Positions 1,220 to 57,374 of a stretch of DNA of 64,000 bases are shown in pieces. The notes under the pieces are model-generated. The model saw nothing but the letters and a program-made list of their open reading frames with translations, ran no database searches and was not told the DNA's origin. Numbering within the stretch: the stretch's first letter is position 1; every line of letters begins with the position of its first letter. The translations under genes were made by a program, and so were the position numbers. The stretch is from Clostridiales bacterium Firm_09 (lineage in GTDB: Bacteria > Bacillota > Clostridia > Christensenellales > DTU072): the NCBI GenBank assembly GCA_001604065.1, contig LVAO01000012.1, positions 45,571 to 109,570 on the forward strand, given 5' to 3'.

Positions 1220-1257
1220 GATTTGCTCCGTGTTTCTGCCCGCATGCGGGCATTGCA

Positions 1258-2571: not shown

Positions 2572-2579
2572 ATTCCCTC

Positions 2580-3110: not shown

Positions 3111-3138
3111 AATTCACCTCGTTTGCCGTTTTACGGCG

Positions 3139-33714: not shown

Positions 33715-33894
33715 TACGCAAATGCAAATAGAATCCCGTAAAGCTATTTGACTGCCCCAACAACACCAACCGGATTCGACGCAAAAAAATCTGTGTTTTT
33801 TGACGATACGACGCCCTTTATCGTCGTGCGGTTGTTTGACACGCAACAGAAAAAATGGTATACTTATGTTAATTTCGGAAAATCGTTCCGCACA

Positions 33895-42255: not shown

Positions 42256-42334
42256 CAGTTCTCAAATCCGGTTCCGGCAGGCGGCTGTCCCGATCAGATA
42301 CGCGTGGCGGCCTTCGAGTCCGAAACAACAAAAC

Positions 42335-42362
42335 TGCCGCTATTTTTGCGGCAATTTGTTTG
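42335..42362. terminator. Bidirectional terminator between the convergent tmcAL gene and the giant-protein cassette
   Basis: TGCCGC-TATTTTT-GCGGCA is flanked by AACAACAAAA upstream and ATTTGTTT downstream, so a U-tract is available on both strands. Confidence 0.45.
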
Positions 42363-43308: not shown

Positions 43309-43319
43309 ATTTTCTCCTG

Positions 43320-44150
43320 TTATTTTCTGTTGCGGAAGAAGTATTCTCTGGGATAATCCTCCCGCGGAATATTTTCGATGTCGTAGTAAGAAACCATGGT
43401 CAGGGTCACCAGATACGGAAACATCATCGAATATGCGACGATGTCCCATATTTTTGATAAAAGGGATATCCGTATCAGAGCCAGCAGCCCGCCGCTGACG
43501 GCCAATACGGCAAGAGGAACCGCAAGCGCCGGCACGATGCGCCACAGAACACGCCCGCATTTCTGTACGCTCCCGGCAACAGCAGGCCTGAAACGCAATC
43601 CGTTGAACGACATCAGCGGCAATAACAGCAAGGTAAAAGAGCCAAACACACACATCCCGAACATAACGGCAAGGAGCGTAACTCCTGACAATACAGCAGA
43701 GAAAAGCACAGAACGTACCGTCTGCCACAATACCATAAGAAGCGTCACAAGCGTCTTGCCCACAAGAAAAAGGATCATATAAAGGGAAGCCGTAAAAATC
43801 CCTGCAAAAAAGGAATCGTTGAACTCCTCCGCAAGGCTGTTGATTTTGAATTTGCCCACACGCAACGACCGCGAAACAATGGAAGACAGCACGGATATGC
43901 AGAATACAGACAGAAAATACAAAACAGCCAGCCAGATCCAGAAAAAGAGTCCCCTGCCGCCATAATTCCATAAAAACCAGAAATCGGTATTCCCTACGGT
44001 ATAATGGCTCAGCCACTCTGTCAGCATCCCGGTAGGTGCTACAAAACTCAACGTTACCCCTGCGGGAACAGAAATCAGAAATAAGAGAATAGCTCGTTTG
44101 CCCCTTTCCAGCACGAACAAATACTCAAGCGTCTTCTTCAGGTAGGTCAT
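43320..44150 (-). CDS. Hypothetical polytopic membrane protein (276 aa)
   Basis: The protein starts MTYLKKTLEYLFVLERGKRAILLFLISVPAG and has about 6 hydrophobic segments. Its start forms an ATGA overlap with the upstream gene's stop. I recognise no motif. Confidence 0.7.
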   Translation of the reverse strand: MTYLKKTLEYLFVLERGKRAILLFLISVPAGVTLSFVAPTGMLTEWLSHYTVGNTDFWFLWNYGGRGLFFWIWLAVLYFLSVFCISVLSSIVSRSLRVGKFKINSLAEEFNDSFFAGIFTASLYMILFLVGKTLVTLLMVLWQTVRSVLFSAVLSGVTLLAVMFGMCVFGSFTLLLLPLMSFNGLRFRPAVAGSVQKCGRVLWRIVPALAVPLAVLAVSGGLLALIRISLLSKIWDIVAYSMMFPYLVTLTMVSYYDIENIPREDYPREYFFRNRK

Positions 44151-45850
44151 TCGATATCTTTCCCCCTGTATTTTTTTAGAGTGTCATCTTCCAGAAGATC
44201 TTCTTTTGTTTCATCGTCTCCGGCCGAGGCATCTTTTCTGACGGCGGAACGGCCTCCGATTTTAATGACACCTTTCTTAACCAAAAGAAACATCACAACA
44301 ACAAGCAGAACCAATCCTCCGGCTCCGGCGGACAGTCCGATCAGCAATCCTTTATTTGCCCTTTGATTTGCGTATTTTATAACAAAGAAAAATTCTTCGC
44401 TGTGCACATCGGAAGTAAATTGCACGATATTGCCGTCCCGGAGTATATCCTTGACTGCAAACGTTTTTGCGTTGTCAGTCGTGCTCACCAAGACAATTTG
44501 GGCATCTGCAGGAAATTCAACCTGGTAAATCATAGCGATGCGCGGGAGACACAGGATATCGTTTTTCATGAGGGTTGCCGTAATGTCAATCACTTTATCG
44601 GGTTCTTTTATCCCGGCAATCTCCAGCACCTCCGGATAAGCGAATCTTTTGATATCCTCTCCGTTGTAGGAAGTGATGATGCCTCCCAGCTCCAATTTGT
44701 CGCCGGGCAGCAAAGACGTTACATTGTCCAGATTAATTACTCTGAGGGAACCGTCCAGAAGCTCTGTATTGACAAAATCCGGTTGCGGAACAACGATTTT
44801 CGCCTCGCCGAACGCCGTTCTGGCAGCCTGCAGCGCCATGTATGCTTTGCGGATATTCTCCTGCGTATCATTGATCTGACATGCCGCGATAAAGCTGTTC
44901 AAAGTGTTTTTAAGATTATTATAGATATCCACATTGATTTTGCCTTCCCATTCCTGAAGCAAGGTTTGCGTTTCGGAAACCAGATCATTTTTATTGTATG
45001 CCGTATAACCGTTCCCGAAATCAAGATATACAATAAACTGCGGCTGTTCGGTATACTTGAACAGCGGCACATAAGTATTGTTGCCCAGCCAGTCTTCCAC
45101 AAACAGAATATACCAGCCGTTCTGATTTGCGGTAAACTGCACCGATTCCGTTATGGCGACAGATGTGGTAATGTTATTTTTCTTCACCACTTCGGTAAAT
45201 GCGCTTTTGAGCGATTCTATCACGTTTTCCGTTGTATCGTTCAAATCGATTTCCACAAACGGATTATAATGGAAGACGGTTATCTGCCTGATGCCGCTTC
45301 TTGCCGTAAGCTGCACATCGCTGTAATTATCCGTTATGGTCACCTCATATTTTAGTCCCGTACCGATCAGATTCTCTTTTAATACAAGATTGGCTATCTT
45401 CGGCGGTTTGTTGTCAATTTTTGTGACCTTCAGTTCCAGTTCGTCCGTATACTCATTTTCTGTGTCGCCCTTATTCAGCACCGCATAAAAAATGACATCG
45501 CAATTTTGGGAAAAAGAGACCGTTGCGTATTTATATTGCAGGATTTCCCCTTCGTAATGATTCTGCAAACTTGCCGTTATGTCTATGGCAGCAGGAGAAT
45601 CGATGAAGTTATCGACGGTATATCTCAGTTCGTCCGTTTCGGGGTCGCACTTCACAAGGTAGCGCATCGCGCCATTTGAGTAGCCCTCTTTGCCGGAATA
45701 TACATTGTAACCCGTATTGATGAGCGATGCTTCCAGCCGTTGTGTGACGACAGAGGAATCATCGGCGAACGCAGAAGCTCCCGCTGCCCACAACGCAGAC
45801 AGCAGGACGACAGCGCAAAGAAGAATAATTATACCTGACGTACGTTTCAT
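44147..45850 (-). CDS. Hypothetical secreted single-pass (type I) membrane protein, 567 aa
   Basis: The ORF track gives 44147..45880. ATG 45850 (MKRTSGIIILLCAVVLLSALWAAGASAFA) follows AAGGAG. The ectodomain is beta-rich (IDNKPPKI Ig-like cue). The C-terminal TM is GLLIGLSAGAGGLVLLVVVMFLLV, followed by a charged tail. There is no LPXTG. Confidence 0.75.
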   Translation of the reverse strand: MKRTSGIIILLCAVVLLSALWAAGASAFADDSSVVTQRLEASLINTGYNVYSGKEGYSNGAMRYLVKCDPETDELRYTVDNFIDSPAAIDITASLQNHYEGEILQYKYATVSFSQNCDVIFYAVLNKGDTENEYTDELELKVTKIDNKPPKIANLVLKENLIGTGLKYEVTITDNYSDVQLTARSGIRQITVFHYNPFVEIDLNDTTENVIESLKSAFTEVVKKNNITTSVAITESVQFTANQNGWYILFVEDWLGNNTYVPLFKYTEQPQFIVYLDFGNGYTAYNKNDLVSETQTLLQEWEGKINVDIYNNLKNTLNSFIAACQINDTQENIRKAYMALQAARTAFGEAKIVVPQPDFVNTELLDGSLRVINLDNVTSLLPGDKLELGGIITSYNGEDIKRFAYPEVLEIAGIKEPDKVIDITATLMKNDILCLPRIAMIYQVEFPADAQIVLVSTTDNAKTFAVKDILRDGNIVQFTSDVHSEEFFFVIKYANQRANKGLLIGLSAGAGGLVLLVVVMFLLVKKGVIKIGGRSAVRKDASAGDDETKEDLLEDDTLKKYRGKDIE

Positions 45851-45885: not shown

Positions 45886-48800
45886 CTACCTTAATATTCG
45901 GCCTCTTCTCGCAACAGCCGCCATCCTTGCGGCGCGGCTTGCGGCTTTTGCTTCAGCATACTGATTTGCCCCATAAATATAACGCGCCATGCCGGGAATC
46001 CTCTTGCGGCGGCGAACAGGCGCAAATGCGAACAAAAAGAACGCGCCAATGATTATCATTAGTATTCCGCCGCCTACCACAATTATCCAGTAAGGGAAGT
46101 CGTTGGTATAGAAGATGATTTCACCGGACCGATCGGCATAAAACGTCATATAGTCTCCTTCGCGGATGAATTGTATATTCTCCTGAGACAAATCGCCCAA
46201 AGGTTTTACTTCCAAGGTTGGCGAATTGCGGTATTTTTCGGGAATCAGCACATGGAACTTAACTTTCTTATCAAGGACGACATCGGCGCCCAACTCTTTG
46301 ATAGAGATGGTCTGCACAATGGCAGTCTGCCCGAATAAACTGGAGAAGAAATTGGATTTATTCTGCGCAGAATAGACTTTCTCAAAAGAAACCGTGACGT
46401 TGGAGGAGAATCCTTCGTCGCAGGAAATATAAGAGCTTGTCTTGGGGTCCGTGATTACCTTCTGGTTGATCTTGACGGTTCCATTGAAGACGGGCGGAAT
46501 AACATTGTAATTGGATGCATGCAATCCGCTTATTTCCCAGGTCAATATCTCGACGCCGTATACTCCCGGCTCTGTCTCGCCGTTTTTTGTGCGGGCGGTC
46601 ATGGCAAGCCGTACCTCGTCGCCTACGATAAGACCCGTCAGCGTGCCGCTGACCGCAATAATATCCGTGCCGTCATACGGCTTGTTTACCACCTGGATGT
46701 TGTCAATGGTAATATCCTTTTTATAAATATAGAACATGCTTGTTTTTTCTGCCGGATAGAAGTTCTCATCGTTGACAACCACTTTTATGCGGTGCGTGCC
46801 TGCGGTTGTCGGCATGGACTCATAACCCGGGAAAGAAATGGTGTATGCGATATTGGCCGGACGTGTGACAACGGTCGGAACCTTCACCTTGCCGTACACC
46901 AGATTGATCAATGTCGACGCGTCAAAATCCAGATATTCCACCCTCGCCTTAGTGATGTCGTAATTGGGACGAACCGCCGCGGAATCAATATAATAATCCT
47001 CGTTTTCCAGCACCGCGTAGACAGTATATTCTCCGACATTCTCCGGCAGCGTCCTCCATACCGTAGAAGAACTGCTGTCGCGTTTGATGTATCGGTAAGA
47101 AAGACCGGCTTCGATGACGGAGATCCTCTGCAGGTCCTGCGGCAGGATGCTCGCTGTCAAAAGCCTTGCCCGGGCTGCCTTGGTTGCCGCATAGGTATAG
47201 CTGTACCATGTCGTGGCCTGGGAGTCTTCATCGTAGAACTCGATCTGCGCCTTGCGTTTGTTGATGGATACGTTATACACCAGCTCTCCGGTATAATTGG
47301 CATCATTGATTCTGGCGGTGTACATATATGTTCCGGCTGATGGCGTTTTGTTGAAAATGCCCTCGGAGGACATATATTGTGCGTTTGAAACGACAAGACC
47401 CAGCGGTGAGGTTCTGAAGGTAAGCTCGGGAAGCGTATCGCCGTAAACAAAGGAGGTTACGTTGCCGTATTTCATGCTTAAGCTGTCATATACAGTGATG
47501 GTCGCGGACGCCTTCATCAGTACCACTTCGATGGTGCTTTCGTAAATCTCATAATTTGCGGTATCCGTTGGAACAAAGCGGTACGGCATCGAATAATACG
47601 TACCGAGAATGCTGCTGATCTGACCGTCCGGGGATACATACGGCACAAATTGATACGGATTGCTGTTATCCGAAACACCACCCATTTCTACGCTGGCTCC
47701 CAGAAGGGTCAACCCCGTATAGGTAAAGCGGAAGGAGCCCGCAATCTCGGTATTGTTGGCAGGATTGATTGCGCGTCCCCCCACAAATGCTCCGTAAGAA
47801 AGGGACTGTCCGTATGTCAGCGCGCCGACAGTCGGCGCAACCACATCGTTATCGGTTATGACAGCTTTTGTAATCGTGAAGCTGACGGTTGAAGAACCTT
47901 CATAATTGCCGTCGCTGATTTTCATGACAACCTCATAGGTGCCTGCGGACTTAGGCTTATTGACGCCCTGCCTCAGTCCATTTATATATTGATAATAACT
48001 GTATGTGACGGCAAGATTGCTGACCGGATTGGTGCGTATCACCGGCTGCTGCTCCAATCCATTATAAGGCAGCGTCAACTGAATGCTTTCTATGGATGCC
48101 GCAGCCTTGAGAATCTTGATGGAAACGCCGGAAATCTCAGCCTCCGCATAATTTGGATTGGTGGGTACGAACACCAGCGTAACACTCCTGTCTCCCGCCG
48201 GCAGATCGTTTTTTTGCGGCTCTTTGAAGAAGAATTGACCCTGGACGTCCGAACCATCAAGATCCAGCACCGCAGCGCCGCCCGAAATAACAGCATTATA
48301 AAGTTCCTGTCCGTAAATCAGATTGGACACGACGGGCACTGCAGTGATATTGACTTTTAATTGGGTAATATCCATACGGACTTCACCCTGCCCCTCCGCA
48401 AGCACATAGTTCGTACCGGTCAGAATAATCTGCGCTTTATAGCTGCCGGCATTGACAGGTGTATCATCAAGCATTCTCCATCCGGTGCCCGTATTTGCAT
48501 AATACCGGATAATATAGCCGATATTGGACATCGCATTGCCGGAACCCGGTGATATTGTGAACATCGGATTGATGACAATGGCTTCTCCGAATTCAAAACT
48601 GTATGCCGCTTCCAGACTGACATAAATCTGCATCGCCGTGACAGTATACGGGAACTCCTGTCCTCCTTGATTGAAAGGATGGGTGGACAAAAAGGTTGCT
48701 CTGACAATGTAGCTGCCTGCGGCAACGGGTGCGCTCTGACCATAATCGATGTACTTGTCTGCAGAATAATAGGTCAGCTTGATTTCGCTTTCGTCCGCAG

Positions 48801-51800
48801 GATAATAAAGTGCTATCTTATATATTGCGGGATCCGAGGCAATGCCGCCCTGCGGAGAAGAAGAATAAATGGTAAACGGAATCACCACCGATGCTCCGGG
48901 CGCATCCGAAATGCCCATCGCCGCATTCTGAACCAGAGAAATTGTCAGACGGTACGTGCCCGGCATCGTCGCCGAAAGCACGGTTTCATAAAGAGAAGTC
49001 GACGTATTGTACCGCTGTATCTTCGTGATTTCATATGCCGGAAGGTCCTCGGTATCGATAAACCCGATGCCAAGATATTCTGCGGTCAGCGGCGCCCCGT
49101 CATATACTTTGCCTGCACGAGCGATCCCGAAAAAGTACTTTTTATATTGGTAATATACATTGAGATCTCCCGCCGTCTGACCGTATACGGTGTTGTTGCC
49201 TGTGATATGAATGAGATTGCTGTCCTCAGAAAGTCCTCCGTCAAATTCTTTCTTTTCTATCACATAATCAAATAGGCAGCGGCCATCGTACGTCATGGAT
49301 GTTTCTTCGTCCTGCACGTCATCAAAAACAAGTATTTCTACTTGATAGGTGCCCGGATCGCGCATTTCGGAGACCTGTATACCGTTTTTGTAGATTATCA
49401 TCCGGAACACGGAAAGATCGAGCTGTTCCTCGGTTCCGACCAGTCGGATATCAAGATTTTCAAGCGTCACCGGCTCTGCATCATATTTTTTTGATTGATT
49501 GGCAACATAGAAGTTTTCGCTGCCCAGATAAACATAAGTACGTATCTGGGTCAGTATTTCCAGAGGTTCATAATTTGGATGGCTGACAACCAGCTTGCAG
49601 GAATATGTTTCTTTGGAGTTCAGAATAATCTGATTCAAATCGGCGATATCCTCAATGGCATAGGTTGCTCCTTGAACTTTCAAAGAAGGATACAGGCTGT
49701 GCCATAAGTCAATATGAATATTGTTTACCGCGCTGCCCAAGGTCTCTCCCACATATCCTTTAATAAGAAGGGTATCCGGATTGTAACTCATTTCTGCCGT
49801 TCTTATATCGATATTGACAGAACCGTCGTATATGATGTTGTACACATCGGTGTTGTCCGGTATAAACATATAGCTTGCCTTCGCTCCCACGTCTACGATC
49901 TGCGTGCTGTCGGTCCAGCGGATTTGTCCGGGAACGGTAGACGTCGTATAGGTCAGGATGGATTGGCTGAGCGGCTGTCCATAATAGATTGAAGTGGCAG
50001 ACACCCCCGCCACAGACACATCGATGCCCAGCACGCGCACCTCAATCTGGAACAGCGCAATATCATAGGTGCTTAAAGAAGAAGGTGTAAACACCACCCA
50101 GACCTTATGATAGTTTGCCTTATCCATCACCAAATCGGGATCGCGGAAGGAGAACGTGCCTGCAATGCTGCGGAGCTGATTTTCATTTTCGCTTCCAGCG
50201 ATATAGGCAAGACCCGATGTCAGTCTGGATTCTGACAATGCGGAGCCTACGGGGATCGGGGATGCGGATGGCGCTTTTATTGCGGGTTTGGCTCTGTCGA
50301 TGATCAATGTGCCGGCAAGCGACTGCCCCTGGTAATTGGCATCCGATAGTTCGGCAACGATCGCATACGTTCCGACATTGGTCGGCAGCGTATAGGTGCC
50401 GTTATATTTAATACGTATCGTGAGCGCTCTGCCGTTATTATAAGAACTCTCAATCCCGGCCGCCTGCGCGTCCAGCCAGGCCGTGCAGCTTATCTGCTGC
50501 TGAGTAAACGCTTTATGAATTTCTACGCCATTTGCCCAACTGAGCAGCACACCGTTATCTGTAAAATAGAGATACTGTCCGATATCCTTTTTGCTGATGG
50601 TCAATGTTATGGTGCCGGTCGGCTGAATATAATTGATATCGGCTTTCCCGTTCTTCATCGGTATGAATCGGACGGTCACATTGCCATAAGTGCCAACTTT
50701 AAGAGAAGAAATATCCGACACTATCTGCCATATGCCGGAAACCGTAGTGCCCGATGCCGCAAAGCGCACCTGTCCTGTCCCGGGTACAAATGCAACCGGC
50801 TCGGTTTGTCTGTAAACCACATTGCCTGCAACCGCGGGCATCGTATCTATGATGAGGGTGGCCGGATTGATGCGGAGGGTAGGCTTGACATAATCTCCCA
50901 GCTGATAATCGTTGTCATTGAGCGTAATGGTCAGCACATAGAACCCTACGGACACCGGTCGGTTGTAGCTGTCAAATACCACGTCCGATACATCCGTCTT
51001 GGGTACCGGAGCGCCGCCGACCAGTGTCGGAACAACCTGCCCGTCCGAAATCGTGAATTCGCAAGGCGTATACTTATATACCGCCGTCAGATAAGAAGGA
51101 GAAAATACGGGAACAATCGCAAAACCGCTGCCGTTGTAGACAACGCTTCTGTTCTGGCTTCCGGAAGGTATCGTCATGACCGCATAGGCCTTTGAAATGC
51201 GCATGAACAATGGGAAATTGGGTGTGAGCGGTACTTCGGCGACTTTATCCTCATATTCCCCTTGATAAGACTGCATGATGGTCAGATTGACGGCGGGGTC
51301 TGTCAGATTGATGCCGTCCTGCACTGCGCTGAACACATCGATTTCTTTGTAATAGCCGTTTTCGTTGATGATGATGCGGACCTGGTATCTTCCGGCGTCC
51401 TTGGGTCTTGTCTCGCTGAAGAGGCCGATCAGATTGTTTTCGTCGTCGCGCTGCTCCGATCTGTAACGTACAGAATAGGATACCCCGGAAGGAACCACCT
51501 GAATGCCGATCTGCTTCTGTGCATCGTCATAAACATAATTCCAGTTCGTTATCGTGATAGAGGAAGGAATAATATAATAATTTATGTTCGCGGTGCCCTG
51601 ATAATTGTTCTCCGTAATCGTAATTTTTGCAATGTATCTGCCGACATCGGAAGGCACCTGATCGTACATGGATACGCCCGTATAGCGATAATATTGTATA
51701 GTGTATTTTATCGGTCCCGAATCGCCGGCATAACCGTCAAAATTGAGGCTTCCGAAGCCCTGGCTTTCACCGTTGTAAAAATAATACCTTTCTGCGAAAG

Positions 51801-54800
51801 CGATGTCTATGGTTTGCTTGGCAATGACCAGAGTCGTTGTCAGCGAGCCCGAATAATTGGGGAAATTGTCCAGCACTCTTATCGTCACTCTGTAAGAACC
51901 TGCTTCCGAAGGCGCCTTGGGATACACAATCTGGCCATCCAAAGAAGTATACGTCACTGTAGAATATTGCTTGATGTTCTCGTTGCCCGGATATGTGATG
52001 TTGTAATCTACCGGACGCTCGCTTCCGTTGTAAACAGTGCTGAGGGTCTCGGGTACGGGTACGATAGAAACGTCTTTGGTATTCTTATTAATTTTATATT
52101 CCCAGGTTAGATAATACACATTGTAGTAATCATACAATGTGCTGTCTGTGGGATAGAATTGCAAATCACGCCTTACCGGCTGGCCGGGAATATCCGCATG
52201 GGGCTTGTAGGTTTCGTCACCAGCCTGTGGAACAAGCCTGAAGACGCCGGAATACGCTGTACGCGTATACGGATTCTGCACCTGACCATTATAAAAATCG
52301 ATATCGGCAATCAGAACGCCGTATTCGACAACCTCCTGTGTGGGGTTGGACAAAATGCTCAGCGTTCCGCGGTGAATGACAAAATTATCAAAAACTCCGT
52401 TGCCCATGTAGTCATTGCTGGTGATATTGACGGTCAGAACATAATCCGATGCAGGCATGGCGGATACATAAGTTGTCATTCCCAGATTGGAAGAAATGTT
52501 GACTGTCTGTCCGTTCCTCGTATAAACATATTCCAGCATGTTCCGGATATCGCCCTGGAGATAGACTTTCTGATCCCCGTTCATATAATAAATCCTGCAT
52601 TCCGGAACGGTATACAGATTTCCGTAGGTCAATTCCCTGGATATTCCTGAACCCAGCTCAACATACGCCTGCATGGCGTTGACGGTAAGCGGAATCCTGA
52701 TATTGGTGAGCGGCCGGTAATTGTTGACGTCCACCGGCGTGAACGTGCAGGGAATCTCATGGATACCTTTTGAAAAAATGACGCTGGCGTAACTCGCATC
52801 GTATCTGATCGTATAGGTTCCGTTCGCCATGCCGCGATCAGGGTATCCTTCCTCAGGATAGCCTGTCGCAGGGGCAACCGGTTTCCCGATCAGAGTATGT
52901 CCGGCGCCAAAAGGCGTGCCGTATATAATGGGAGTAAAGGACATCCGGGACAAATCCGCCGTCGCCCTGGCGACAACCAGACTGACGCTGTATTCCATCA
53001 GATCAAAGTTGATGTTGGGCACGAACACACCGTCATGCCACTCTCCCGCCTGCCAGAACAAACGGATCGAGTAGCTGCTGACAACCCTGTTGTCGTATGC
53101 ATCGTATCGCACAGGCAGAATATACCTTCCCAGATAATCTTCATGGAGAATGACTTGGCCGGATGGATCGGATGCATAAAGAACATTGTATCGCGCGCAT
53201 ATTTCTGATTCGGTTTCAAAAAGAAACCTTCCATAAATCGTCGTCGATACTCCGGCGAGCACATAAGTTGCCGTATCGGATACGCCGCTCAGAAGGTTCG
53301 CCTTCCTGTCCTCTATGGTCTGGCCGTACTCAATATGCCCCTGGGTCGAGTCTCCCAGATAGCTCTGCAGAGAACCGTCCTTGTTGTATACCGCATATTC
53401 TGAATTCAGGCGGGGTGTCGGCTGACTGATGTCGGTAATCAGCGCTTTCTGGATCACCAATAAAACAAACACCGTGCCTTCATTGTTCGCGTCATTGACG
53501 CGGATCCGCAAGGCATACGTTCCGACCTCAAGGTCTTTGGGGAACATTGCTGCGGTATAATCCTGGCTGTATACAGCAGCGGACTCCGGCACAATGTCGC
53601 CGTTATAATATTTTACCTGCATGTAAGAATAGACATACGCCACATTCAGCGTCCCGCCGCCGGGTATGTTCGCCGTTGGTTTGGGTAAAAGCTGCGCATT
53701 CGTCTTTCCGTATTTGATCGTATAATATTTGTCAAATTGCTGTTGGGCATAGGTTTCGGGAGGGATGGAATTGTAGTTGACCGGCGTCAGTTCAAGTTCC
53801 CTCTTTTCTATAATGACCTTGGAAAACAATATTTTACTGCTCATGTAGTTGCAGGCGGAAGCATCGATATAATAGGTGATGCGATATTCCCCTGCGTTCA
53901 TGATGTTGTTGTATACCGTCCCTTCGTCTATGTATCCGCCGACATATGGATTGTAGTAATACCGTACCGGAAGACCTTCAATCACCGTTTGGTTGACTCT
54001 GGTGATAAAAACAATATCCTTGTACGTGCCGGTATAATCCAGCACAAGCGTGTTTTCTGCATTGATGCCTTCAATCTCAAGGTCGGCTTCGGCGTTCATC
54101 ACCGTAATATAAATGGTATGTGTGGTGGAATCAAAATTCCCGCTGTGATACATTCCTTTTTTAAGAACATAAACGCCGTTTACGTAATCGTAATAATCAT
54201 GTAAAGGACCGGGATTGCCGTTTACGGTCAAGAAGTTTTCATGAATCACCTGCTGCGTGAATACTGCCGTATCCGTAAGAGCAATGGGATTGAAGCGCAC
54301 TTCCACCCTCATATTGGAGGAAACATTGGGGAGCATATAATCCAGAGAGTTATGCGCCGGATAAATGATTTCATATGTCCCCAATACGCCGGATTTCGTC
54401 TCAAAATAATCCACACCTTTAATATTGAATTTCGCATTGATGATGTCTGCGCCGCTTGCATTCTGACTGATAAAGCTCAGATCATCCAGACTTTCGCCGT
54501 AAACAATGCCCGGGCTGTAAAGTCCCGTCACCTGGGGATTTGCCTTGATGATTTTGTAATATCCGGATTTTGTGCCAAAATACAGCGTCGTCGTCGTCAC
54601 GTCAATCGTGATTGTATAATAATATTCTCCGACATCCACCAGTCCGTTGTTAAGCCCGGAGCCTTCTTTATACATGGTTGTCTGATAGATTGTCTGCCCG
54701 TTGACAACATATTGCGTCATTTGGAGAATATGATAGCTGCCCTGTCCGGCAATTATAATGGTGTTATTGAGACTCAGCAGGCCTGTATAATTGTAGCGGT

Positions 54801-57126
54801 AGCTCCCGATGACTACGCTGCCGTAATCCTGCATTACGCCGTTTATGTATGTCGGTTCGACAGAATAGCGCACGGGTTCATAGTATACGGTATTGAAGCT
54901 TAGGCCGGTAATCATTGTTGTGCCTTCGTATGCCTCAATATAGTCTTCCAGTCCTTGGGATCTCCCGTTAAAAACGAATTCTGTGGAGGTGGTCGTGATG
55001 TTCAGGGATTTCCTGAAATAGAAGAATACCGCTCTTACACCATCCATATATTCTTTTGTCAGCTTGAACGTAATATCGATATAATCCGGCCTGCCTGTCG
55101 ATCCGGGATTGAATACAATGCCTTCATTATTGGATTCATTGATGCCCGCTTCATCGCTTCGATAGCGAATCAATTTATATGCCGCGGCCTGCGCCGAGGT
55201 AACGGAAATACGTATCGTCAGCCATTGATCCATCTTGAACTTCATGTTTACTTCTTTATCGGAACCGTAACCGTATGACGTGACACCCAAAAATGTTCCG
55301 TCCGCAGTATGATAAGTCGGTCCCCAGAAGCACTCCCGGTAGGCAGCTTTGGTATGGTTTGCACCCAGAAGTTCGTTGGCATGGCCTTCATCGCCGCTGC
55401 CGATCAAAAAGCTGGTGGTAATATTGTAATAGGTGGAGTCCACTTTGACAGGGTTGCCGTCGGCGGTGTAATAGATTTTGGGCACGCTGACATTTCCTGC
55501 GGCATCTATGCGGAACAGCACCAGCGCCTGCTCCTGTTTGTTTCTGAACGTGATCGGCCTGGTTTTCTGCGTATACCGTCCGGGACTGATTTGATTGTAA
55601 TAAATCAATTCCTGCCGCACATCGCTCTGTTTTGGTTCGTTGTTGCGATTGTTATACGATATGCTTGTGTAAAGAAGAGGAGTAAAATCATAGTCCGAAT
55701 AATCTATGGTGAGAAGCATTGGGTCTTCGCAGACAAACGCGTATACGTATTCTCTTGATTGAACGGGCACGGTGGATGCGATATAGCTCAGCAATACGGA
55801 ATCGCTGTCGATGAACCAGTTTCCGTTTGCAATGGCCGTTCCCAGCACAGAATCAGGATCGATTTCGGGCGCGGACGGCGCTCTGCCGTCAACGTTGATG
55901 CGCAGCGGGTCCTGACTGATTGAGGCCGTTCCGCGCACGCAGGATGGCCCGTCTTTATCGTAAGTGACCAAAAGCTGCGGCACAATAACAAGCTGGTAAA
56001 TATTTCTGACGCCGGAGTCCACTTGAAACGATATCTGATAATATGTCACAGGCTGCGAATTTTCTATCACTGTCGTATATCCGCTTTCTTCTGCAAGGAT
56101 GGAAAGAAATTTCAGGTCCAGATTATCTTCCGGATCGCCCGTCACGACATTAAGGCTTGTGGAATACTGCTGCCAATATACACCATAGCGGGAATCATTG
56201 CCGAAAACCTTGGTGTATATCGCAGGAAGCTGATAGCAGGTGGTTGTATCGCCGTCCCGGAAGACCTTGGTGCGCAGCGTGATCTTGTCTCCTGTCTTCA
56301 CATAGGTATCGGCAAGCTGGTTGATATAATCGGGCGTATTTTTATTGAATGTATCCAGAGCGACATCTCTTTTGTTGGAGCCCGAAATTTCAAAAACAGA
56401 ACTGGTGCGGAAGGTAATCGCATCCGTAAGGCTGGTGGCTGTTTCGATCACGATGTTGGAAAGGCGTATCCAGGTCCCCGTACCGTTGATTTGAATGTTT
56501 ATTTTGAAATAAGCGTTTGCATTGAGTCCCGTACTGCCCAATGCGTTATCAAACGACATTTCGACGGGATAGTTGGTCATATCCAATGTCGCGCTTATTA
56601 CTTTTGTTTGTTCTGTGGTGCCGTTTGCCGACCATGCAAACGTAATCACGACAGGAACATTCGGGCCTGAAATAACACTGATATTGAAATTGAGCGTCGC
56701 GGTTGTGACGAAGTCTCCGGTGAGACCTCCGAGCATCGCATTATAGAAGTTGTTATCGTTGTAGTTGGAGCTGAATTTTATGATGGAACGGATGCTGTCG
56801 CCGCTGGCATTGGGCAGATATTCCAACTCTGTTCTGCTTGCCCTGTAGCGGCCGCCCGTCGTGTTGGTGGAAAAAAGATCCGCGCCGTCAAACTGTCCGA
56901 CATGTTCGGAAATATCGCCGCTGTCCTGCGCCTGTGTCCGGACGGAATTGGAGCCGAGAACAACGCCCATCCCCGAGCTCAATGTCGTTCCGTTGATGCC
57001 TGCCGCACCGGCCGGCAGCTCAGACGCTTTCTGCCCGAACGTAATAAAAGCAAACGTGCCGATCATCAGACATACCGCAATCAGAATCAGTGAGGATACG
57101 GTCAGGCGGGAAACCCTTTTTTTCAT
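45886..57126 (-). CDS. Giant (3,746 aa) repeat-rich surface protein with N-terminal signal, jelly-roll-like tip, dozens of Ig/MBG-like modules and a C-terminal TM anchor
   Basis: A single uninterrupted ORF. The signal is MKKRVSRLTVSSLILIAVCLMIGTFAFITF. The motif (A/V)G(T/S/E)Y.(V/I)...(I/V).D.NY.G recurs at least 14 times. A YDGT module is present (VVNKPYDGTDIIAVSG). The C-terminus is WIIVVGGGILMIIIGAFFLFAFA followed by PVRRRKRIP and a basic tail. Confidence 0.88.
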   Translation of the reverse strand: MKKRVSRLTVSSLILIAVCLMIGTFAFITFGQKASELPAGAAGINGTTLSSGMGVVLGSNSVRTQAQDSGDISEHVGQFDGADLFSTNTTGGRYRASRTELEYLPNASGDSIRSIIKFSSNYNDNNFYNAMLGGLTGDFVTTATLNFNISVISGPNVPVVITFAWSANGTTEQTKVISATLDMTNYPVEMSFDNALGSTGLNANAYFKINIQINGTGTWIRLSNIVIETATSLTDAITFRTSSVFEISGSNKRDVALDTFNKNTPDYINQLADTYVKTGDKITLRTKVFRDGDTTTCYQLPAIYTKVFGNDSRYGVYWQQYSTSLNVVTGDPEDNLDLKFLSILAEESGYTTVIENSQPVTYYQISFQVDSGVRNIYQLVIVPQLLVTYDKDGPSCVRGTASISQDPLRINVDGRAPSAPEIDPDSVLGTAIANGNWFIDSDSVLLSYIASTVPVQSREYVYAFVCEDPMLLTIDYSDYDFTPLLYTSISYNNRNNEPKQSDVRQELIYYNQISPGRYTQKTRPITFRNKQEQALVLFRIDAAGNVSVPKIYYTADGNPVKVDSTYYNITTSFLIGSGDEGHANELLGANHTKAAYRECFWGPTYHTADGTFLGVTSYGYGSDKEVNMKFKMDQWLTIRISVTSAQAAAYKLIRYRSDEAGINESNNEGIVFNPGSTGRPDYIDITFKLTKEYMDGVRAVFFYFRKSLNITTTSTEFVFNGRSQGLEDYIEAYEGTTMITGLSFNTVYYEPVRYSVEPTYINGVMQDYGSVVIGSYRYNYTGLLSLNNTIIIAGQGSYHILQMTQYVVNGQTIYQTTMYKEGSGLNNGLVDVGEYYYTITIDVTTTTLYFGTKSGYYKIIKANPQVTGLYSPGIVYGESLDDLSFISQNASGADIINAKFNIKGVDYFETKSGVLGTYEIIYPAHNSLDYMLPNVSSNMRVEVRFNPIALTDTAVFTQQVIHENFLTVNGNPGPLHDYYDYVNGVYVLKKGMYHSGNFDSTTHTIYITVMNAEADLEIEGINAENTLVLDYTGTYKDIVFITRVNQTVIEGLPVRYYYNPYVGGYIDEGTVYNNIMNAGEYRITYYIDASACNYMSSKILFSKVIIEKRELELTPVNYNSIPPETYAQQQFDKYYTIKYGKTNAQLLPKPTANIPGGGTLNVAYVYSYMQVKYYNGDIVPESAAVYSQDYTAAMFPKDLEVGTYALRIRVNDANNEGTVFVLLVIQKALITDISQPTPRLNSEYAVYNKDGSLQSYLGDSTQGHIEYGQTIEDRKANLLSGVSDTATYVLAGVSTTIYGRFLFETESEICARYNVLYASDPSGQVILHEDYLGRYILPVRYDAYDNRVVSSYSIRLFWQAGEWHDGVFVPNINFDLMEYSVSLVVARATADLSRMSFTPIIYGTPFGAGHTLIGKPVAPATGYPEEGYPDRGMANGTYTIRYDASYASVIFSKGIHEIPCTFTPVDVNNYRPLTNIRIPLTVNAMQAYVELGSGISRELTYGNLYTVPECRIYYMNGDQKVYLQGDIRNMLEYVYTRNGQTVNISSNLGMTTYVSAMPASDYVLTVNITSNDYMGNGVFDNFVIHRGTLSILSNPTQEVVEYGVLIADIDFYNGQVQNPYTRTAYSGVFRLVPQAGDETYKPHADIPGQPVRRDLQFYPTDSTLYDYYNVYYLTWEYKINKNTKDVSIVPVPETLSTVYNGSERPVDYNITYPGNENIKQYSTVTYTSLDGQIVYPKAPSEAGSYRVTIRVLDNFPNYSGSLTTTLVIAKQTIDIAFAERYYFYNGESQGFGSLNFDGYAGDSGPIKYTIQYYRYTGVSMYDQVPSDVGRYIAKITITENNYQGTANINYYIIPSSITITNWNYVYDDAQKQIGIQVVPSGVSYSVRYRSEQRDDENNLIGLFSETRPKDAGRYQVRIIINENGYYKEIDVFSAVQDGINLTDPAVNLTIMQSYQGEYEDKVAEVPLTPNFPLFMRISKAYAVMTIPSGSQNRSVVYNGSGFAIVPVFSPSYLTAVYKYTPCEFTISDGQVVPTLVGGAPVPKTDVSDVVFDSYNRPVSVGFYVLTITLNDNDYQLGDYVKPTLRINPATLIIDTMPAVAGNVVYRQTEPVAFVPGTGQVRFAASGTTVSGIWQIVSDISSLKVGTYGNVTVRFIPMKNGKADINYIQPTGTITLTISKKDIGQYLYFTDNGVLLSWANGVEIHKAFTQQQISCTAWLDAQAAGIESSYNNGRALTIRIKYNGTYTLPTNVGTYAIVAELSDANYQGQSLAGTLIIDRAKPAIKAPSASPIPVGSALSESRLTSGLAYIAGSENENQLRSIAGTFSFRDPDLVMDKANYHKVWVVFTPSSLSTYDIALFQIEVRVLGIDVSVAGVSATSIYYGQPLSQSILTYTTSTVPGQIRWTDSTQIVDVGAKASYMFIPDNTDVYNIIYDGSVNIDIRTAEMSYNPDTLLIKGYVGETLGSAVNNIHIDLWHSLYPSLKVQGATYAIEDIADLNQIILNSKETYSCKLVVSHPNYEPLEILTQIRTYVYLGSENFYVANQSKKYDAEPVTLENLDIRLVGTEEQLDLSVFRMIIYKNGIQVSEMRDPGTYQVEILVFDDVQDEETSMTYDGRCLFDYVIEKKEFDGGLSEDSNLIHITGNNTVYGQTAGDLNVYYQYKKYFFGIARAGKVYDGAPLTAEYLGIGFIDTEDLPAYEITKIQRYNTSTSLYETVLSATMPGTYRLTISLVQNAAMGISDAPGASVVIPFTIYSSSPQGGIASDPAIYKIALYYPADESEIKLTYYSADKYIDYGQSAPVAAGSYIVRATFLSTHPFNQGGQEFPYTVTAMQIYVSLEAAYSFEFGEAIVINPMFTISPGSGNAMSNIGYIIRYYANTGTGWRMLDDTPVNAGSYKAQIILTGTNYVLAEGQGEVRMDITQLKVNITAVPVVSNLIYGQELYNAVISGGAAVLDLDGSDVQGQFFFKEPQKNDLPAGDRSVTLVFVPTNPNYAEAEISGVSIKILKAAASIESIQLTLPYNGLEQQPVIRTNPVSNLAVTYSYYQYINGLRQGVNKPKSAGTYEVVMKISDGNYEGSSTVSFTITKAVITDNDVVAPTVGALTYGQSLSYGAFVGGRAINPANNTEIAGSFRFTYTGLTLLGASVEMGGVSDNSNPYQFVPYVSPDGQISSILGTYYSMPYRFVPTDTANYEIYESTIEVVLMKASATITVYDSLSMKYGNVTSFVYGDTLPELTFRTSPLGLVVSNAQYMSSEGIFNKTPSAGTYMYTARINDANYTGELVYNVSINKRKAQIEFYDEDSQATTWYSYTYAATKAARARLLTASILPQDLQRISVIEAGLSYRYIKRDSSSSTVWRTLPENVGEYTVYAVLENEDYYIDSAAVRPNYDITKARVEYLDFDASTLINLVYGKVKVPTVVTRPANIAYTISFPGYESMPTTAGTHRIKVVVNDENFYPAEKTSMFYIYKKDITIDNIQVVNKPYDGTDIIAVSGTLTGLIVGDEVRLAMTARTKNGETEPGVYGVEILTWEISGLHASNYNVIPPVFNGTVKINQKVITDPKTSSYISCDEGFSSNVTVSFEKVYSAQNKSNFFSSLFGQTAIVQTISIKELGADVVLDKKVKFHVLIPEKYRNSPTLEVKPLGDLSQENIQFIREGDYMTFYADRSGEIIFYTNDFPYWIIVVGGGILMIIIGAFFLFAFAPVRRRKRIPGMARYIYGANQYAEAKAASRAARMAAVARRGRILR
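46400..54700 (-). repeat. Coding region of divergent tandem ~90-110-aa Ig/MBG-like modules
   Basis: Examples: VGEYYYTITIDV (nt ~54600), EAGSYRVTIRVLDNFPNYSG, NVGTYAIVAELSDANYQG, SAGTYEVVMKISDGNYEG, SAGTYMYTARINDANYTG, TAGTHRIKVVVNDENF, PGVYGVEILTWEISG (nt ~46550). The modules are often bounded by I.K(A/K)...I. Confidence 0.65.
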
Positions 57127-57234
57127 AACGTGAGAACCTCCGATAAGCTATTAATATAATACACGATAGTATCCGGGACGTTGCCATACGTAACGCGCCC
57201 GCGGAGCATATTAATATTAATACAGTACAGTCTT

Positions 57235-57263
57235 ATTCTATTATATATAAGGCATCCCGTCAA
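57235..57263 (-). promoter_or_regulatory. Candidate promoter of the giant-protein cassette
   Basis: On the minus strand: TTGACG (57263-57258), 17 nt, TAGAAT (57240-57235). This predicts a ~100-nt 5' UTR. Confidence 0.4.
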
Positions 57264-57374
57264 CCCGCAGAAAGCAATATTTACTTTAATATTTCCCCGC
57301 GCCCGTCCGTTGGCACGCTTTGTACGCATAAACAGAGAAATATTTTTGTCCGTTCTTGAATAGTATATTATGCA

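What the first reader, a model, noticed from the sequence alone, without database searches (positions are those of the whole stretch)
45886..57126. Architecture of the 3,746-aa protein: distal jelly-roll-like tip, ~8 kb of divergent Ig/MBG-like modules, C-terminal TM anchor instead of LPXTG
The first ~800 aa lack the repeat motif. They include a beta-rich segment (TATLNFNISVISGPNVPVVITFAWSANG...YFKINIQINGTGTWIRLSNIVIE) that looks like a carbohydrate-binding jelly roll.

From nt ~54700 down to ~46400 the motif (A/V)G(T/S/E)Y.(V/I)...(I/V).D.NY.G recurs at least 14 times, and a YDGT-type module is present. This pattern is typical of the MBG/YDG modules of giant Firmicute adhesins.

The protein ends in a 23-residue TM helix (nt ~46019-46087) followed by RRRKR and a 40-aa basic tail. 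The predicted topology is a fibre several thousand residues long projecting from the membrane. The repeats are divergent at protein level, which suggests an old, stable gene rather than recent amplification.
Basis: partly seen in the sequence, partly recalled or inferred. Interest (0 to 1): 0.65.

Follow-up and report, generated by a model that had tools for sequence, protein, structure and literature searches.

The report
Giant membrane-anchored surface fibre protein
This 3,746-residue gene encodes a long, membrane-anchored surface fibre of an uncultured gut-type Clostridia bacterium (Christensenellales): an ordinary kind of bacterial adhesin, but one whose length, module order and a co-encoded partner protein are unusually well conserved across its relatives.

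Summary
ORF 45886-57126 (-) encodes 3,746 aa. It has an N-terminal signal sequence and a ~750-aa repeat-free head. A stalk of about 26 divergent beta-sandwich modules follows: 17 match Pfam MBG_3, and 9-10 belong to a second kind with no Pfam family. Then come a family-specific juxtamembrane domain, one TM helix (aa 3680-3702), RRRKR and a basic tail. There is no LPXTG.

A predicted head structure matches CBM4/11/22/61-type jelly rolls at fold level only. The gene is not a chimera: the identical protein sits on independent assemblies, and 25 further full- or near-full-length relatives (22 from genome loci, three from the protein library) align colinearly.

- The family was found only in MAGs labelled Christensenella/Christensenellaceae/Christensenellales, Candidatus Stercoripulliclostridium, Catabacter or unclassified Clostridia. 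Its length is nearly fixed (3,187-3,824 aa) and its module order is conserved.
- Conservation rises from tip (16-19% identity) to membrane end (42%).
- A ~540-670-aa bitopic protein follows the giant in most related loci. It appears to share the giant's juxtamembrane domain (hhalign E 7e-6). Two unannotated polytopic membrane proteins follow it in the nearer clade.

Best reading: a Sec-exported, sortase-independent fibrillar adhesin. This is a new variant of a known kind and of moderate interest. Binding has not been shown.

The parts
57235..57263 (-). Promoter-like site TTGACG-17-TAGAAT, about 110 nt upstream of the start codon.
   Evidence: Consensus scan, 10 of 12 matches; sequence read. 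Function is inferred only.
57137..57141 (-). Shine-Dalgarno GGAGG, 10 nt before the ATG at 57126.
   Evidence: Read directly from the sequence.
57004..57126 (-). Signal sequence, aa 1-41: MKKRVSR, then a ~17-23-residue hydrophobic core, then a conserved A-x-A (AGA, aa 39-41).
   Evidence: Hydropathy. An A-x-A lies 8-16 residues after the hydrophobic core in 25 of 25 relatives, although this region is only ~16% identical. Cleavage is inferred, not shown.
54760..57003 (-). Repeat-free head, aa 42-~789. It is mostly beta structure in several domains and has no Pfam, NCBIfam or PDB sequence match.
   Evidence: An exhaustive HMMER search of 1.84 billion representatives found only 6 relatives, all giants of the same build. 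AlphaFold model: mean pLDDT 65.8.
56383..56964 (-). It is the least conserved part of the protein.
   Evidence: pLDDT 85-92 over aa ~140-248. Foldseek hits to CBM11, CBM4 (1gu3_A, target TM-score 0.60), CBM22, CBM61 and lectin-like domains, E 2e-5 to 1e-3. Foldseek gave no query coordinates, so assigning those hits to D1 is an inference. Relatives are 13-34% identical with no invariant residue. A profile of D1 finds nothing in PDB or Pfam.
55396..55905 (-). Head domain D3, aa ~408-577: a beta sandwich framed by the conserved VDxxAPxxPxID and DAAGNVS motifs.
   Evidence: Invariant D, P, P ... D, G, N, S columns in alignment A1. pLDDT 70-88. Only weak hits to the OmpL47-type barrel (E 0.045) and CHB_HEX_C_1 (E 0.1).
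46498..54759 (-). Stalk, aa ~790-3543: about 26 divergent beta-sandwich modules of two kinds. Type A is MBG_3-like ('Y[DN]G ... [AVP]G.Y.V ... NY'), 17 copies. Type B is 'YGxxL ... GxFxF ... FxPxDxNY', 9-10 copies.
   Evidence: Pfam MBG_3, 150.7 bits. Self-trained profiles. Among B modules, 3 of 40 weakly hit Big_3_5, one hits MBG_3 and one hits MBG_2. A and B profiles are only marginally alike, E 8.7e-4 over 18 columns. No DNA repeats.
46501..46722 (-). Last stalk module, aa 3469-3542, YDG-like (NKPYDGTD...).
   Evidence: Pfam YDG E 2.8e-4, 21.5 bits, below the cut-off of 25. Well predicted in the tail model.
46096..46497 (-). Juxtamembrane domain, aa 3544-3677. It is specific to this family, is the most conserved part (REGDYxTFYADxSGE ... 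DFPYW), and has no Pfam or PDB match.
   Evidence: Mean identity to distant relatives is 42%. A profile-profile match links it to the partner protein's juxtamembrane region: probability 84%, E 7.4e-6, 110 columns, with a reversed-sequence control at E 0.34.
46021..46089 (-). C-terminal transmembrane helix, aa 3680-3702.
   Evidence: Hydropathy. Predicted as a helix, model residues 582-603. Present in all 23 full-length proteins compared.
45889..46020 (-). Cytoplasmic basic tail, aa 3703-3746: PV-RRRKR plus 37 residues, predicted helical.
   Evidence: Relatives have basic tails of 14-44 residues.
44147..45850 (-). Partner gene (567 aa): signal peptide (ASA|F), ~470-aa ectodomain, C-terminal TM helix and a charged tail. 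It starts 35 nt after the giant's stop and has a strong ribosome-binding site.
   Evidence: Of 27 loci with enough downstream sequence, 21 have a 540-670-aa bitopic gene directly after the giant, often overlapping its stop codon. Shared juxtamembrane domain.
43320..44150 (-). Polytopic membrane protein (276 aa, ~5-6 TM) with no known family. Its start overlaps the partner gene's stop by 4 nt.
   Evidence: Only 11 protein clusters are known, none annotated. It follows the partner in about 16 loci.
42406..43308 (-). Second polytopic membrane protein (300 aa, ~5 TM) with no known family; a weak paralogue of the 276-aa protein.
   Evidence: hhalign against the 276-aa family: probability 62%, E 7.7e-5. 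Conserved position in about 16 loci.
42331..42357 (-). Terminator-like hairpin followed by a T-run, just after the last gene of the cassette.
   Evidence: Consensus scan: 10-pair stem with 5 G-C pairs. Inferred only.

Best explanation
The gene encodes a Sec-exported, sortase-independent fibrillar adhesin of a Christensenellales-type Clostridia bacterium.

Proposed mechanism:
1. The N-terminal signal sequence takes the chain across the membrane and is cut at a conserved A-x-A (inferred).
2. The C-terminal helix (aa 3680-3702) acts as a stop-transfer anchor, leaving the RRRKR tail in the cytoplasm (inferred from sequence and the positive-inside rule).
3. About 26 divergent Ig-like modules form a stalk. 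At a typical 3.5-4.5 nm per Ig-like domain this would be roughly 90-120 nm long (inference from general knowledge).
4. The stalk holds out a ~750-aa head. The head's outermost domain is a CBM-like jelly roll and is the fastest-evolving part, so it is the likely ligand-binding tip, probably for a glycan (inferred).
5. The conserved juxtamembrane domain is shared with a bitopic protein encoded immediately downstream. The two probably form the base of the fibre in the membrane, in the nearer clade together with two co-conserved polytopic membrane proteins (inferred from gene linkage and remote homology).

The architecture, its conservation and the gene neighbourhood are shown. Cleavage, fibre length, ligand and the partner complex are not.
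For: - Architecture: ORF and translation; MBG_3 at E 1.2e-44; 17 type-A and 9-10 type-B modules.
- Structure: the tail model (pLDDT 74.5, with aa ~3230-3580 at 85-93) matches strings of Ig/cadherin-like domains such as titin/MyBP-C, the GhpA grappling hook, DSCAM and cadherins.
- Topology: only two hydrophobic segments, no LPXTG, and basic residues flanking both on the cytoplasmic side. A-x-A follows the signal core in 25 of 25 relatives.
- Head: a jelly-roll domain with top Foldseek hits to CBMs and lectin-like domains.
- Conservation gradient: 16-19% identity at aa 1-300, rising to 42% at aa 3451-3746.
- A real, old gene: the identical protein is on independent assemblies. The scan found 40 loci, labelled Christensenella, Christensenellaceae, Christensenellales, Candidatus Stercoripulliclostridium, Catabacter or unclassified Clostridia/Clostridiales/Bacillota/Firmicutes. 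Twenty-three full-length proteins (the window's plus 22 from loci) span 3,187-3,824 aa, SD 143. The alignment is colinear at 22-70% identity. Module order is conserved. Positional counterparts are 32-39% identical against 26-27% for modules within one protein. There are no DNA repeats.
- Operon: promoter-like site, ribosome-binding sites, 4-nt and 11-nt junctions and a terminator-like site.
- Neighbours: conserved downstream genes. Partner and giant share the juxtamembrane domain.
- Literature: MBG and YDG are listed as stalk domains of fibrillar adhesins, and N-terminal annotation gaps in such proteins often hide adhesive jelly-roll domains (PMC9210967).
Against: - No binding or localisation data exist.
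- The head has no sequence relationship to any CBM or adhesive domain. Its model is only moderately confident (pLDDT 65.8, pTM 0.50). Foldseek did not report which head residues matched.
- The signal's hydrophobic core is long (17-23 residues) and the A-x-A lies unusually far downstream, so it might stay uncleaved.
- SignalP and TMHMM were not available.
- The partner homology is remote: 14% identity, hhalign probability 84%, HMMER scores of only 5-10 bits.
- The two polytopic genes are absent from the more distant clade, where a pgsA-like gene and an ~870-aa ORF that I read by eye as valyl-tRNA synthetase follow instead.
- Christensenella is reported to stain Gram-negative (PMC12692188). I did not examine the envelope type.
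Confidence: 0.62

Rival explanations
1. Doubly anchored loop. The N-terminal hydrophobic segment is an uncleaved signal anchor, so both ends sit in the membrane and the 3,640-residue ectodomain forms a hairpin or arch. The 'head' would then be membrane-proximal rather than a distal tip.
For: The hydrophobic core is 17-23 residues, long enough to span a membrane. Basic residues precede it and follow the C-terminal helix, which fits an N-in/C-in topology.
Against: A-x-A is conserved at the same place in 25 of 25 relatives although the surrounding sequence is ~16% identical. The head is the fastest-evolving part, which fits an exposed tip. Gram-positive signal peptides are commonly long (general knowledge).
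Confidence: 0.1
2. A structural or cell-cell fibre rather than a glycan-binding adhesin. On this reading the fixed-length stalk serves as a spacer, a coat element, or a homophilic (cadherin-like) link that holds cells together in flocs, and the head is not a lectin.
For: Length and module order are unusually fixed across relatives as distant as 22% identity. This is unlike repeat-number-variable adhesins (PMC9704523). The tail model also matches cadherin and protocadherin strings. Christensenella species flocculate by an unknown mechanism (PMC7002349).
Against: Cadherin-like matches are generic for strings of beta sandwiches: target TM-scores are 0.06-0.23 with rmsd mostly above 14 A. The tip evolves fastest, which suits changing external ligands better than self-recognition. 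None of the 40 loci carries the name of a cultured Christensenella species.
Confidence: 0.18
3. The C-terminal module is a sorting signal. The conserved [DE]F.Y[WGT] motif plus helix plus basic cluster, present on both the giant and its partner, would be recognised and processed by the adjacent polytopic proteins. This would be analogous to exosortase, archaeosortase or rhombosortase systems, and the fibre would end up covalently attached or released.
For: Two neighbouring proteins share the juxtamembrane domain, helix and basic tail, and in about 16 loci sit beside two unannotated polytopic membrane proteins. The motif directly before the helix is conserved in most relatives.
Against: The polytopic proteins match no exosortase, CPBP, rhomboid or other family even at E 10. 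They have no conserved Cys or His. They are missing from the distant clade, which keeps the giant and partner. The tails (14-44 aa) are longer than in known C-terminal sorting signals (the comparison rests on general knowledge).
Confidence: 0.08
4. The head is an enzyme (for example a glycoside hydrolase or protease) displayed on a stalk, not a binding module.
For: About 500 residues of the head (aa ~250-800) are only moderately modelled and have no assigned function.
Against: No catalytic family is hit in Pfam, NCBIfam or PDB. The head is almost all beta sandwich. Its invariant residues are Gly, Pro, Asp and Asn of structural motifs.
Confidence: 0.04
5. The long ORF is an assembly artefact or chimera.
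For: None was found. The only general ground is that long repetitive genes are prone to mis-assembly.
Against: The identical 3,746-aa product is on three contigs from at least two independent sources. There are no DNA repeats to mis-join. Relatives are colinear over the whole length.
Confidence: 0.01

Closest known systems
Fibrillar adhesins of Gram-positive bacteria with MBG/YDG stalk domains (the class defined by Monzon, Lafita and Bateman; PMC9210967 and bioRxiv 10.1101/2020.12.07.414375)
   Same: It is very long, with an N-terminal non-repeat region distal to the anchor. The stalk is made of repeated beta-sandwich domains that include a Pfam stalk family (MBG_3). There is a C-terminal anchor. 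The protein is rich in Thr, Val, Tyr and Ser.
   Different: - No known adhesive domain is present.
- The anchor is a transmembrane helix plus a family-specific juxtamembrane domain, not LPXTG.
- About a third of the stalk modules have no Pfam family.
- A partner gene that shares the anchor module is co-conserved.
Periscope proteins (Rib, SasG, Aap, SraP and similar; PMC9704523)
   Same: A rod-like stalk presents an N-terminal functional region away from the cell.
   Different: Periscope proteins have near-identical DNA repeats whose number varies between strains. Here the modules are ~26% identical, there are no DNA repeats, and length and module order are almost fixed across the whole lineage.
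Carbohydrate-binding modules CBM4, CBM11, CBM22 and CBM61, and lectin-like domains of phage tailspikes (for example PDB 1gu3, 6r3m, 4xup, 2xom, 8iq9)
   Same: They share the jelly-roll beta-sandwich fold of ~150-190 residues, at Foldseek probability 1.0 and target TM-score up to 0.60.
   Different: No sequence similarity is detectable even with a family profile. Ligand-binding residues are not identifiable, and there are no invariant residues across relatives.
GhpA, the giant 'grappling hook' surface fibre of Aureispira (PDB 9flp, 9flu, 9flv)
   Same: It is a giant surface protein built of long strings of Ig-like domains, and it is among the top structural matches for the stalk.
   Different: It comes from a different phylum, with different secretion and anchoring. 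The match is generic for tandem beta sandwiches (target TM-score 0.11-0.23) and there is no sequence relationship.

Membership tests
Pfam MBG_3 (PF18887) domain-containing proteins | The HMM score must reach the gathering cut-off of 25 bits. | tested here: met
   150.7 bits, E 1.2e-44, 7 stretches. A relative is named 'MBG domain-containing protein' by NCBI.
Pfam YDG (PF18657) | The HMM score must reach the gathering cut-off of 25 bits. | tested here: not met
   21.5 bits, E 2.8e-4, at aa 3469-3542. The module is YDG-like but below threshold.
Fibrillar adhesins (Monzon et al.) | A stalk of several tandem copies of a recognised stalk domain. | tested here: met
   17 MBG_3-type modules. MBG and YDG are listed as stalk domains (PMC9210967).
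Fibrillar adhesins (Monzon et al.) | A recognised adhesive domain. | tested here: not met
   No Pfam, NCBIfam or PDB sequence hit in aa 1-800. There is only a fold-level likeness to CBMs.
Fibrillar adhesins (Monzon et al.) | A cell-surface anchor. | tested here: inconclusive
   No catalogued anchor domain or sortase motif was found. A C-terminal TM helix and basic tail are predicted and are conserved in all 23 full-length proteins compared.
Fibrillar adhesins (Monzon et al.) | Demonstrated adhesion. | not testable with these tools
   This needs binding assays.
Sortase substrates (LPXTG cell-wall sorting signal) | An LPXTG-type motif within about 50 residues of the C-terminus, followed by a hydrophobic stretch and a short basic tail. 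| tested here: not met
   No LPxT[GAN], NPxTG, LPxAG or SPxTG motif anywhere in the protein. The hydrophobic stretch is present, but the tail is 44 residues.
Carbohydrate-binding modules (CBM4/11/22/61) | Sequence membership in a CBM family. | tested here: not met
   No Pfam or PDB sequence hits for the domain or for its 18-sequence profile.
Carbohydrate-binding modules (CBM4/11/22/61) | The jelly-roll beta-sandwich fold. | tested here: met
   Foldseek E 2e-5 to 1e-3, probability 1.0, target TM-score 0.38-0.60, on a domain with pLDDT up to 92.
Carbohydrate-binding modules (CBM4/11/22/61) | Carbohydrate binding. | not testable with these tools
   This needs glycan arrays or calorimetry with the recombinant domain.
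Periscope proteins | Highly identical tandem repeats whose number varies between strains. | tested here: not met
   No DNA repeats. Modules are 26-27% identical. Length SD is 143 aa across 23 proteins.
Exosortase/archaeosortase/rhombosortase-type C-terminal sorting systems | A cognate polytopic sorting enzyme of a known family encoded nearby. | tested here: not met
   The 276-aa and 300-aa polytopic proteins hit nothing in Pfam or NCBIfam at E up to 10. They have no conserved Cys or His.

The most novel reading that the evidence does not exclude
The giant, its bitopic partner with the same juxtamembrane domain and helix, and (in the nearer clade) two unannotated polytopic membrane proteins together form a previously undescribed, lineage-wide, sortase-independent apparatus. 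This apparatus would build a fixed-length (~100 nm) surface fibre in Christensenellales. The fibre would underlie the cell-cell aggregation and partner capture (for example of methanogens) for which cultured Christensenella are known but for which no molecular basis has been reported.
Probability: 0.13. Interest if true: 0.7.

Novelty: new variant of a known kind. Interest (0 to 1): 0.4.

Why it matters
Christensenellales are heritable gut bacteria associated with leanness. Cultured members form flocs that host methanogens, and the search terms for adhesion found nothing in the paper describing this (PMC7002349).

A surface fibre conserved across this lineage gives a concrete candidate for how these cells contact glycans or other cells. 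It comes with a fast-evolving tip, a fixed length and a dedicated membrane partner. It is also a natural counter-example to repeat-variable 'periscope' adhesins.

The practical gains are modest:
- Two unannotated domain families are defined: the type-B stalk module and the juxtamembrane anchor domain.
- A head region is delimited that could be expressed and tested for binding.

If the protein is only a generic adhesin, this is an ordinary annotation refinement.

Tried and rejected
- The whole-protein homology search timed out.
- The word-index search with aa 1-784 returned nothing, not even the protein itself, because the candidate list was saturated. It was replaced by the exhaustive HMMER search.
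- The head alignment was too divergent to seed a genome scan. The tail alignment was used instead.
- BLASTP of the giant against the downstream 577-aa ORF and against the second giant ORF gave nothing. Only profile-profile comparison revealed the shared juxtamembrane domain.
- I tested whether the partner is a 'stalkless' copy of the head. Only a motif-level match to DxxGN was found (E 0.02), so I rejected this.
- I looked for a c-di-GMP or other riboswitch in the 5' leader. There is no Rfam hit in the leader or anywhere in the window.
- I considered a prophage or tail-fibre origin, because Foldseek listed phage tail proteins. I rejected it: the flanks are housekeeping genes (ack-pta, whiA, murB, smc) and the locus is syntenic across species.
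- Lipoprotein anchoring was rejected: there is no lipobox, and the Cys in the signal core is not conserved.
- The 68-aa ORF that public gene calls place just upstream overlaps the promoter-like site and looks spurious.
- Literature searches for 'MBG domain' returned almost nothing specific.
Full report
**Observation**

The ORF is real. Window 45886..57126 on the minus strand runs from ATG to a stop and encodes 3,746 aa. Hydropathy finds only two hydrophobic segments, aa ~4-33 and aa ~3675-3706, and there is no LPXTG-like motif anywhere.

The C-terminal helix WIIVVGGGILMIIIGAFFLFAFA is aa 3680-3702 (nt 46021-46089).

A looser form occurs 11 times against 1.0 expected, and a still looser regex finds 14. 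Pfam MBG_3 scores 150.7 bits (E 1.2e-44, 7 stretches). YDG scores 21.5 bits at aa 3469-3542, just under its cut-off of 25.

**Anatomy of the stalk**

Profiles trained on the protein itself find two module kinds:
- Type A: 17 modules between aa 1017 and 3543. The pattern is Y[DN]G ... [AVP]G.Y.V ... NY, and this is the kind Pfam calls MBG_3.
- Type B: 9-10 modules between aa 869 and 3296. The pattern is YGxxL ... GxFxF ... FxPxDxNY.

Type B has no Pfam family. Of 40 B modules from the family, three weakly hit Big_3_5, one hits MBG_3 and one hits MBG_2. The A and B profiles are only marginally alike (E 8.7e-4 over 18 columns).

There are no direct or tandem DNA repeats in the gene. Modules within the protein are ~26-27% identical.

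An AlphaFold model of aa 3098-3746 has mean pLDDT 74.5, with aa ~3230-3580 at 85-93. It shows tandem beta sandwiches, then a separate domain, a TM helix and a helical tail. Its best PDB matches are strings of Ig/cadherin-like domains: titin/MyBP-C, the GhpA grappling hook, DSCAM and cadherins. 'Ig/MBG-like modules' is therefore right, with the refinement that two module kinds alternate.

**The head**

Residues 1-~800 hit nothing in Pfam, NCBIfam or PDB sequences, apart from faint OmpL47-barrel and CHB_HEX_C_1 signals around the DAAGNVS motif.

An exhaustive HMMER search of 1.84 billion representative proteins with aa 33-769 found six relatives. Five are 3,285-3,743 aa and one is a 962-aa partial protein.

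With those as an alignment, the head model reaches pLDDT 65.8 overall. Foldseek against the PDB gives, as the best single-domain matches:
- CBM11 (6r3m)
- CBM4 (1gu3_A, target TM-score 0.60, rmsd 4.7 A)
- CBM22 and CBM61
- the lectin-like domains of Klebsiella phage tailspikes
- a legume lectin

All of these have E 2e-5 to 1e-3 and probability 1.0. This supports a jelly-roll, CBM-like fold. Foldseek did not report which head residues matched, so assigning the hits to D1 is an inference. A profile of this domain from 18 relatives finds nothing in PDB or Pfam, and the domain has no invariant residue. Carbohydrate binding therefore remains an inference.

**Not a chimera, and an old gene**

The identical 3,746-aa product is on three contigs from at least two independent sources, a Logan assembly of SRR29904086 and JGI 3300044580. 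The sequence is also held by NCBI on a 118-kb contig.

A genome scan seeded with the conserved tail found 40 loci. Their records are labelled Christensenella sp., Christensenellaceae, Christensenellales, Candidatus Stercoripulliclostridium, Catabacter, or unclassified Clostridia, Clostridiales, Bacillota or Firmicutes.

Twenty-two loci hold complete genes. Together with the window protein, lengths run from 3,187 to 3,824 aa (median 3,595, SD 143). Every one has a single N-terminal hydrophobic segment, a single C-terminal helix and a 14-44-aa basic tail.

All 25 relatives align colinearly with the window protein at 22-70% identity. The A/B module order is conserved, for example ...BABBAA(A)BABAAA in the C-terminal half. 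Modules are closer to their positional counterparts in ~30%-identical relatives (32-39%) than to their neighbours in the same protein (26-27%).

This is the opposite of 'periscope' adhesins, whose near-identical repeats vary in number (PMC9704523). The length differences that do exist map to a few module-sized indels, for example low alignment occupancy at aa 2551-2850.

**Gradient and topology**

Mean identity to 23 distant relatives rises from 16-19% at aa 1-300 to 42% at aa 3451-3746. This fits an exposed, fast-evolving tip and a conserved base.

Despite that divergence, an A-x-A lies 8-16 residues after the signal core in 25 of 25 relatives. I read this as a signal-peptidase I site, which makes the head a free distal end. 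Basic residues flank both hydrophobic segments on the cytoplasmic side.

SignalP and TMHMM were not available, so cleavage is inferred. The rival, an uncleaved signal anchor giving a doubly anchored loop, keeps about 10%.

**Neighbourhood**

The gene sits among housekeeping genes: ack-pta, a HIGH-family nucleotidyltransferase, whiA, murB and smc.

It heads a tight operon:
- a promoter-like TTGACG-17-TAGAAT at 57263-57235
- GGAGG 10 nt before the ATG
- the giant
- 35 nt later, a 567-aa protein with a signal peptide (ASA|F) and a C-terminal helix and tail
- a 276-aa polytopic protein whose start overlaps the partner's stop by 4 nt
- 11 nt later, a 300-aa polytopic protein
- a terminator-like hairpin at 42357-42331

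None of the three downstream proteins matches Pfam or NCBIfam, even at E 10. The 276-aa protein has only 11 known clusters, none usefully annotated.

Of 27 related loci with enough downstream sequence, 21 have a 540-670-aa bitopic gene directly after the giant, often overlapping its stop. In about 16 loci the two polytopic genes follow. In the most distant clade the next genes are instead a pgsA-like gene and an ~870-aa ORF that I read by eye as valyl-tRNA synthetase. Only the giant-partner pair is therefore conserved across both clades.

Profile-profile comparison links the partner's juxtamembrane ectodomain to the giant's C-terminal domain. The result is hhalign probability 84%, E 7.4e-6 over 110 columns, with a reversed-sequence control at E 0.34. 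HMMER scores are weak (5-10 bits). Even so, the partner profile's best hit lands on that same ~120-residue domain in at least 14 of 26 giants. I regard this homology as probable, not proven.

The giant's C-terminal domain itself is family-specific. It has no PDB match, and the only database hits are fragments of the same family.

**Mechanism proposed**

The proposed sequence is Sec export, signal cleavage, and stop-transfer anchoring by the C-terminal helix. The stalk has about 26 modules. At a typical 3.5-4.5 nm per Ig-like domain (general knowledge) it would be roughly 90-120 nm long. It would present a multi-domain head whose outer jelly roll binds a ligand, probably a glycan. The partner, sharing the juxtamembrane domain and helix, would form the base of the fibre.

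Shown: the architecture, the conservation, the gene linkage and the fold-level likenesses. Inferred: cleavage, length, ligand and the partner complex. My confidence is about 0.6.

**Comparison and novelty**

The protein fits the class of Gram-positive fibrillar adhesins, for which MBG and YDG are catalogued stalk domains. In that class, N-terminal annotation gaps have repeatedly turned out to be jelly-roll adhesive domains (PMC9210967).

It fails three membership tests: sortase substrates (no LPXTG), sequence membership of any CBM family, and periscope proteins. One relative is already labelled 'MBG domain-containing protein' by NCBI, and the others found are 'hypothetical' or unnamed.

What is new is modest:
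- a sortase-independent anchor module shared with a co-conserved partner
- an unannotated second stalk module
- near-fixed length and module order across the lineage

I rate it a new variant of a known kind, interest 0.4.

The boldest reading not excluded is that the cassette is a dedicated fibre apparatus underlying the flocculation and methanogen association of Christensenella (PMC7002349). I put that at about 0.13. One reason for caution is that none of the 40 loci carries the name of a cultured Christensenella species, although the pattern-based scan could have missed them.

Noticed in passing
window 22285-33615 (-): A second giant ORF of 3,776 aa. It has 24 BspA-type LRR_5 stretches plus Flg_new repeats. 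It has a lipoprotein signal (MKKLLFILMAVCLAVGLAAC) and no C-terminal helix. The same genome therefore anchors a second giant surface protein in a different way. It shows no similarity to the finding's protein.
   Followed up: partly
window 57375-58259 (+): A divergently transcribed 294-aa gene just upstream of the giant. It has only a sub-threshold SPOR-domain hit (20 bits against a cut-off of 21). Weak homologues (23-27% identity) lie upstream of the giant in five other loci: L007, L017, L018, L021 and L041.
   Followed up: partly
window 57123-57329 (-): Public gene calls place a 68-aa ORF overlapping the giant's start by 4 nt. It covers the promoter-like site and has no family hit. It is probably not a gene.
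   Followed up: partly
window 58941-59903 (+): A 320-aa membrane protein resembling the sporulation protein YlbJ. It scores 241.7 bits on TIGR02871, below the 304.65 cut-off. This is of note because, from memory and not checked here, cultured Christensenella are described as non-spore-forming.
   Followed up: no
window 33748-36018 (+) and 62101-63066 (-): Two sizeable ORFs (756 aa and 321 aa) with no Pfam hit at E 0.01. The second lies between murB and an ABC permease, near whiA.
   Followed up: no
window 46000-58000: GC skew is about 0 across the giant gene but about -0.09 in the flanks; the flanking regions include genes on both strands. I suspect this reflects the Thr/Val/Tyr/Ile/Ser/Gly-rich composition rather than foreign origin, since GC content matches the flanks, but I did not test it.
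   Followed up: no
window 48577-49476 (aa 2551-2850 of the giant): Alignment occupancy among relatives falls to 0.51-0.65 here. The window's lineage therefore seems to carry an extra two or three modules. This appears to be the main source of length differences in the family.
   Followed up: partly
window 42406-44150 (-); loci L004-L041: The 276-aa and 300-aa polytopic proteins look like distant paralogues of each other (hhalign probability 62%, E 7.7e-5). The 276-aa family conserves a cytoplasmic-loop motif R94-S-x-R-V-G-x-F and a C-terminal YY.I....R.DY. Function is unknown.
   Followed up: partly
window 44147-45850 (-), partner protein aa ~145-257: The partner carries ID..PP and D.xGN motifs like those framing domain D3 of the giant's head. 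The profile-profile match is not significant (E 0.02 over 23 columns).
   Followed up: yes
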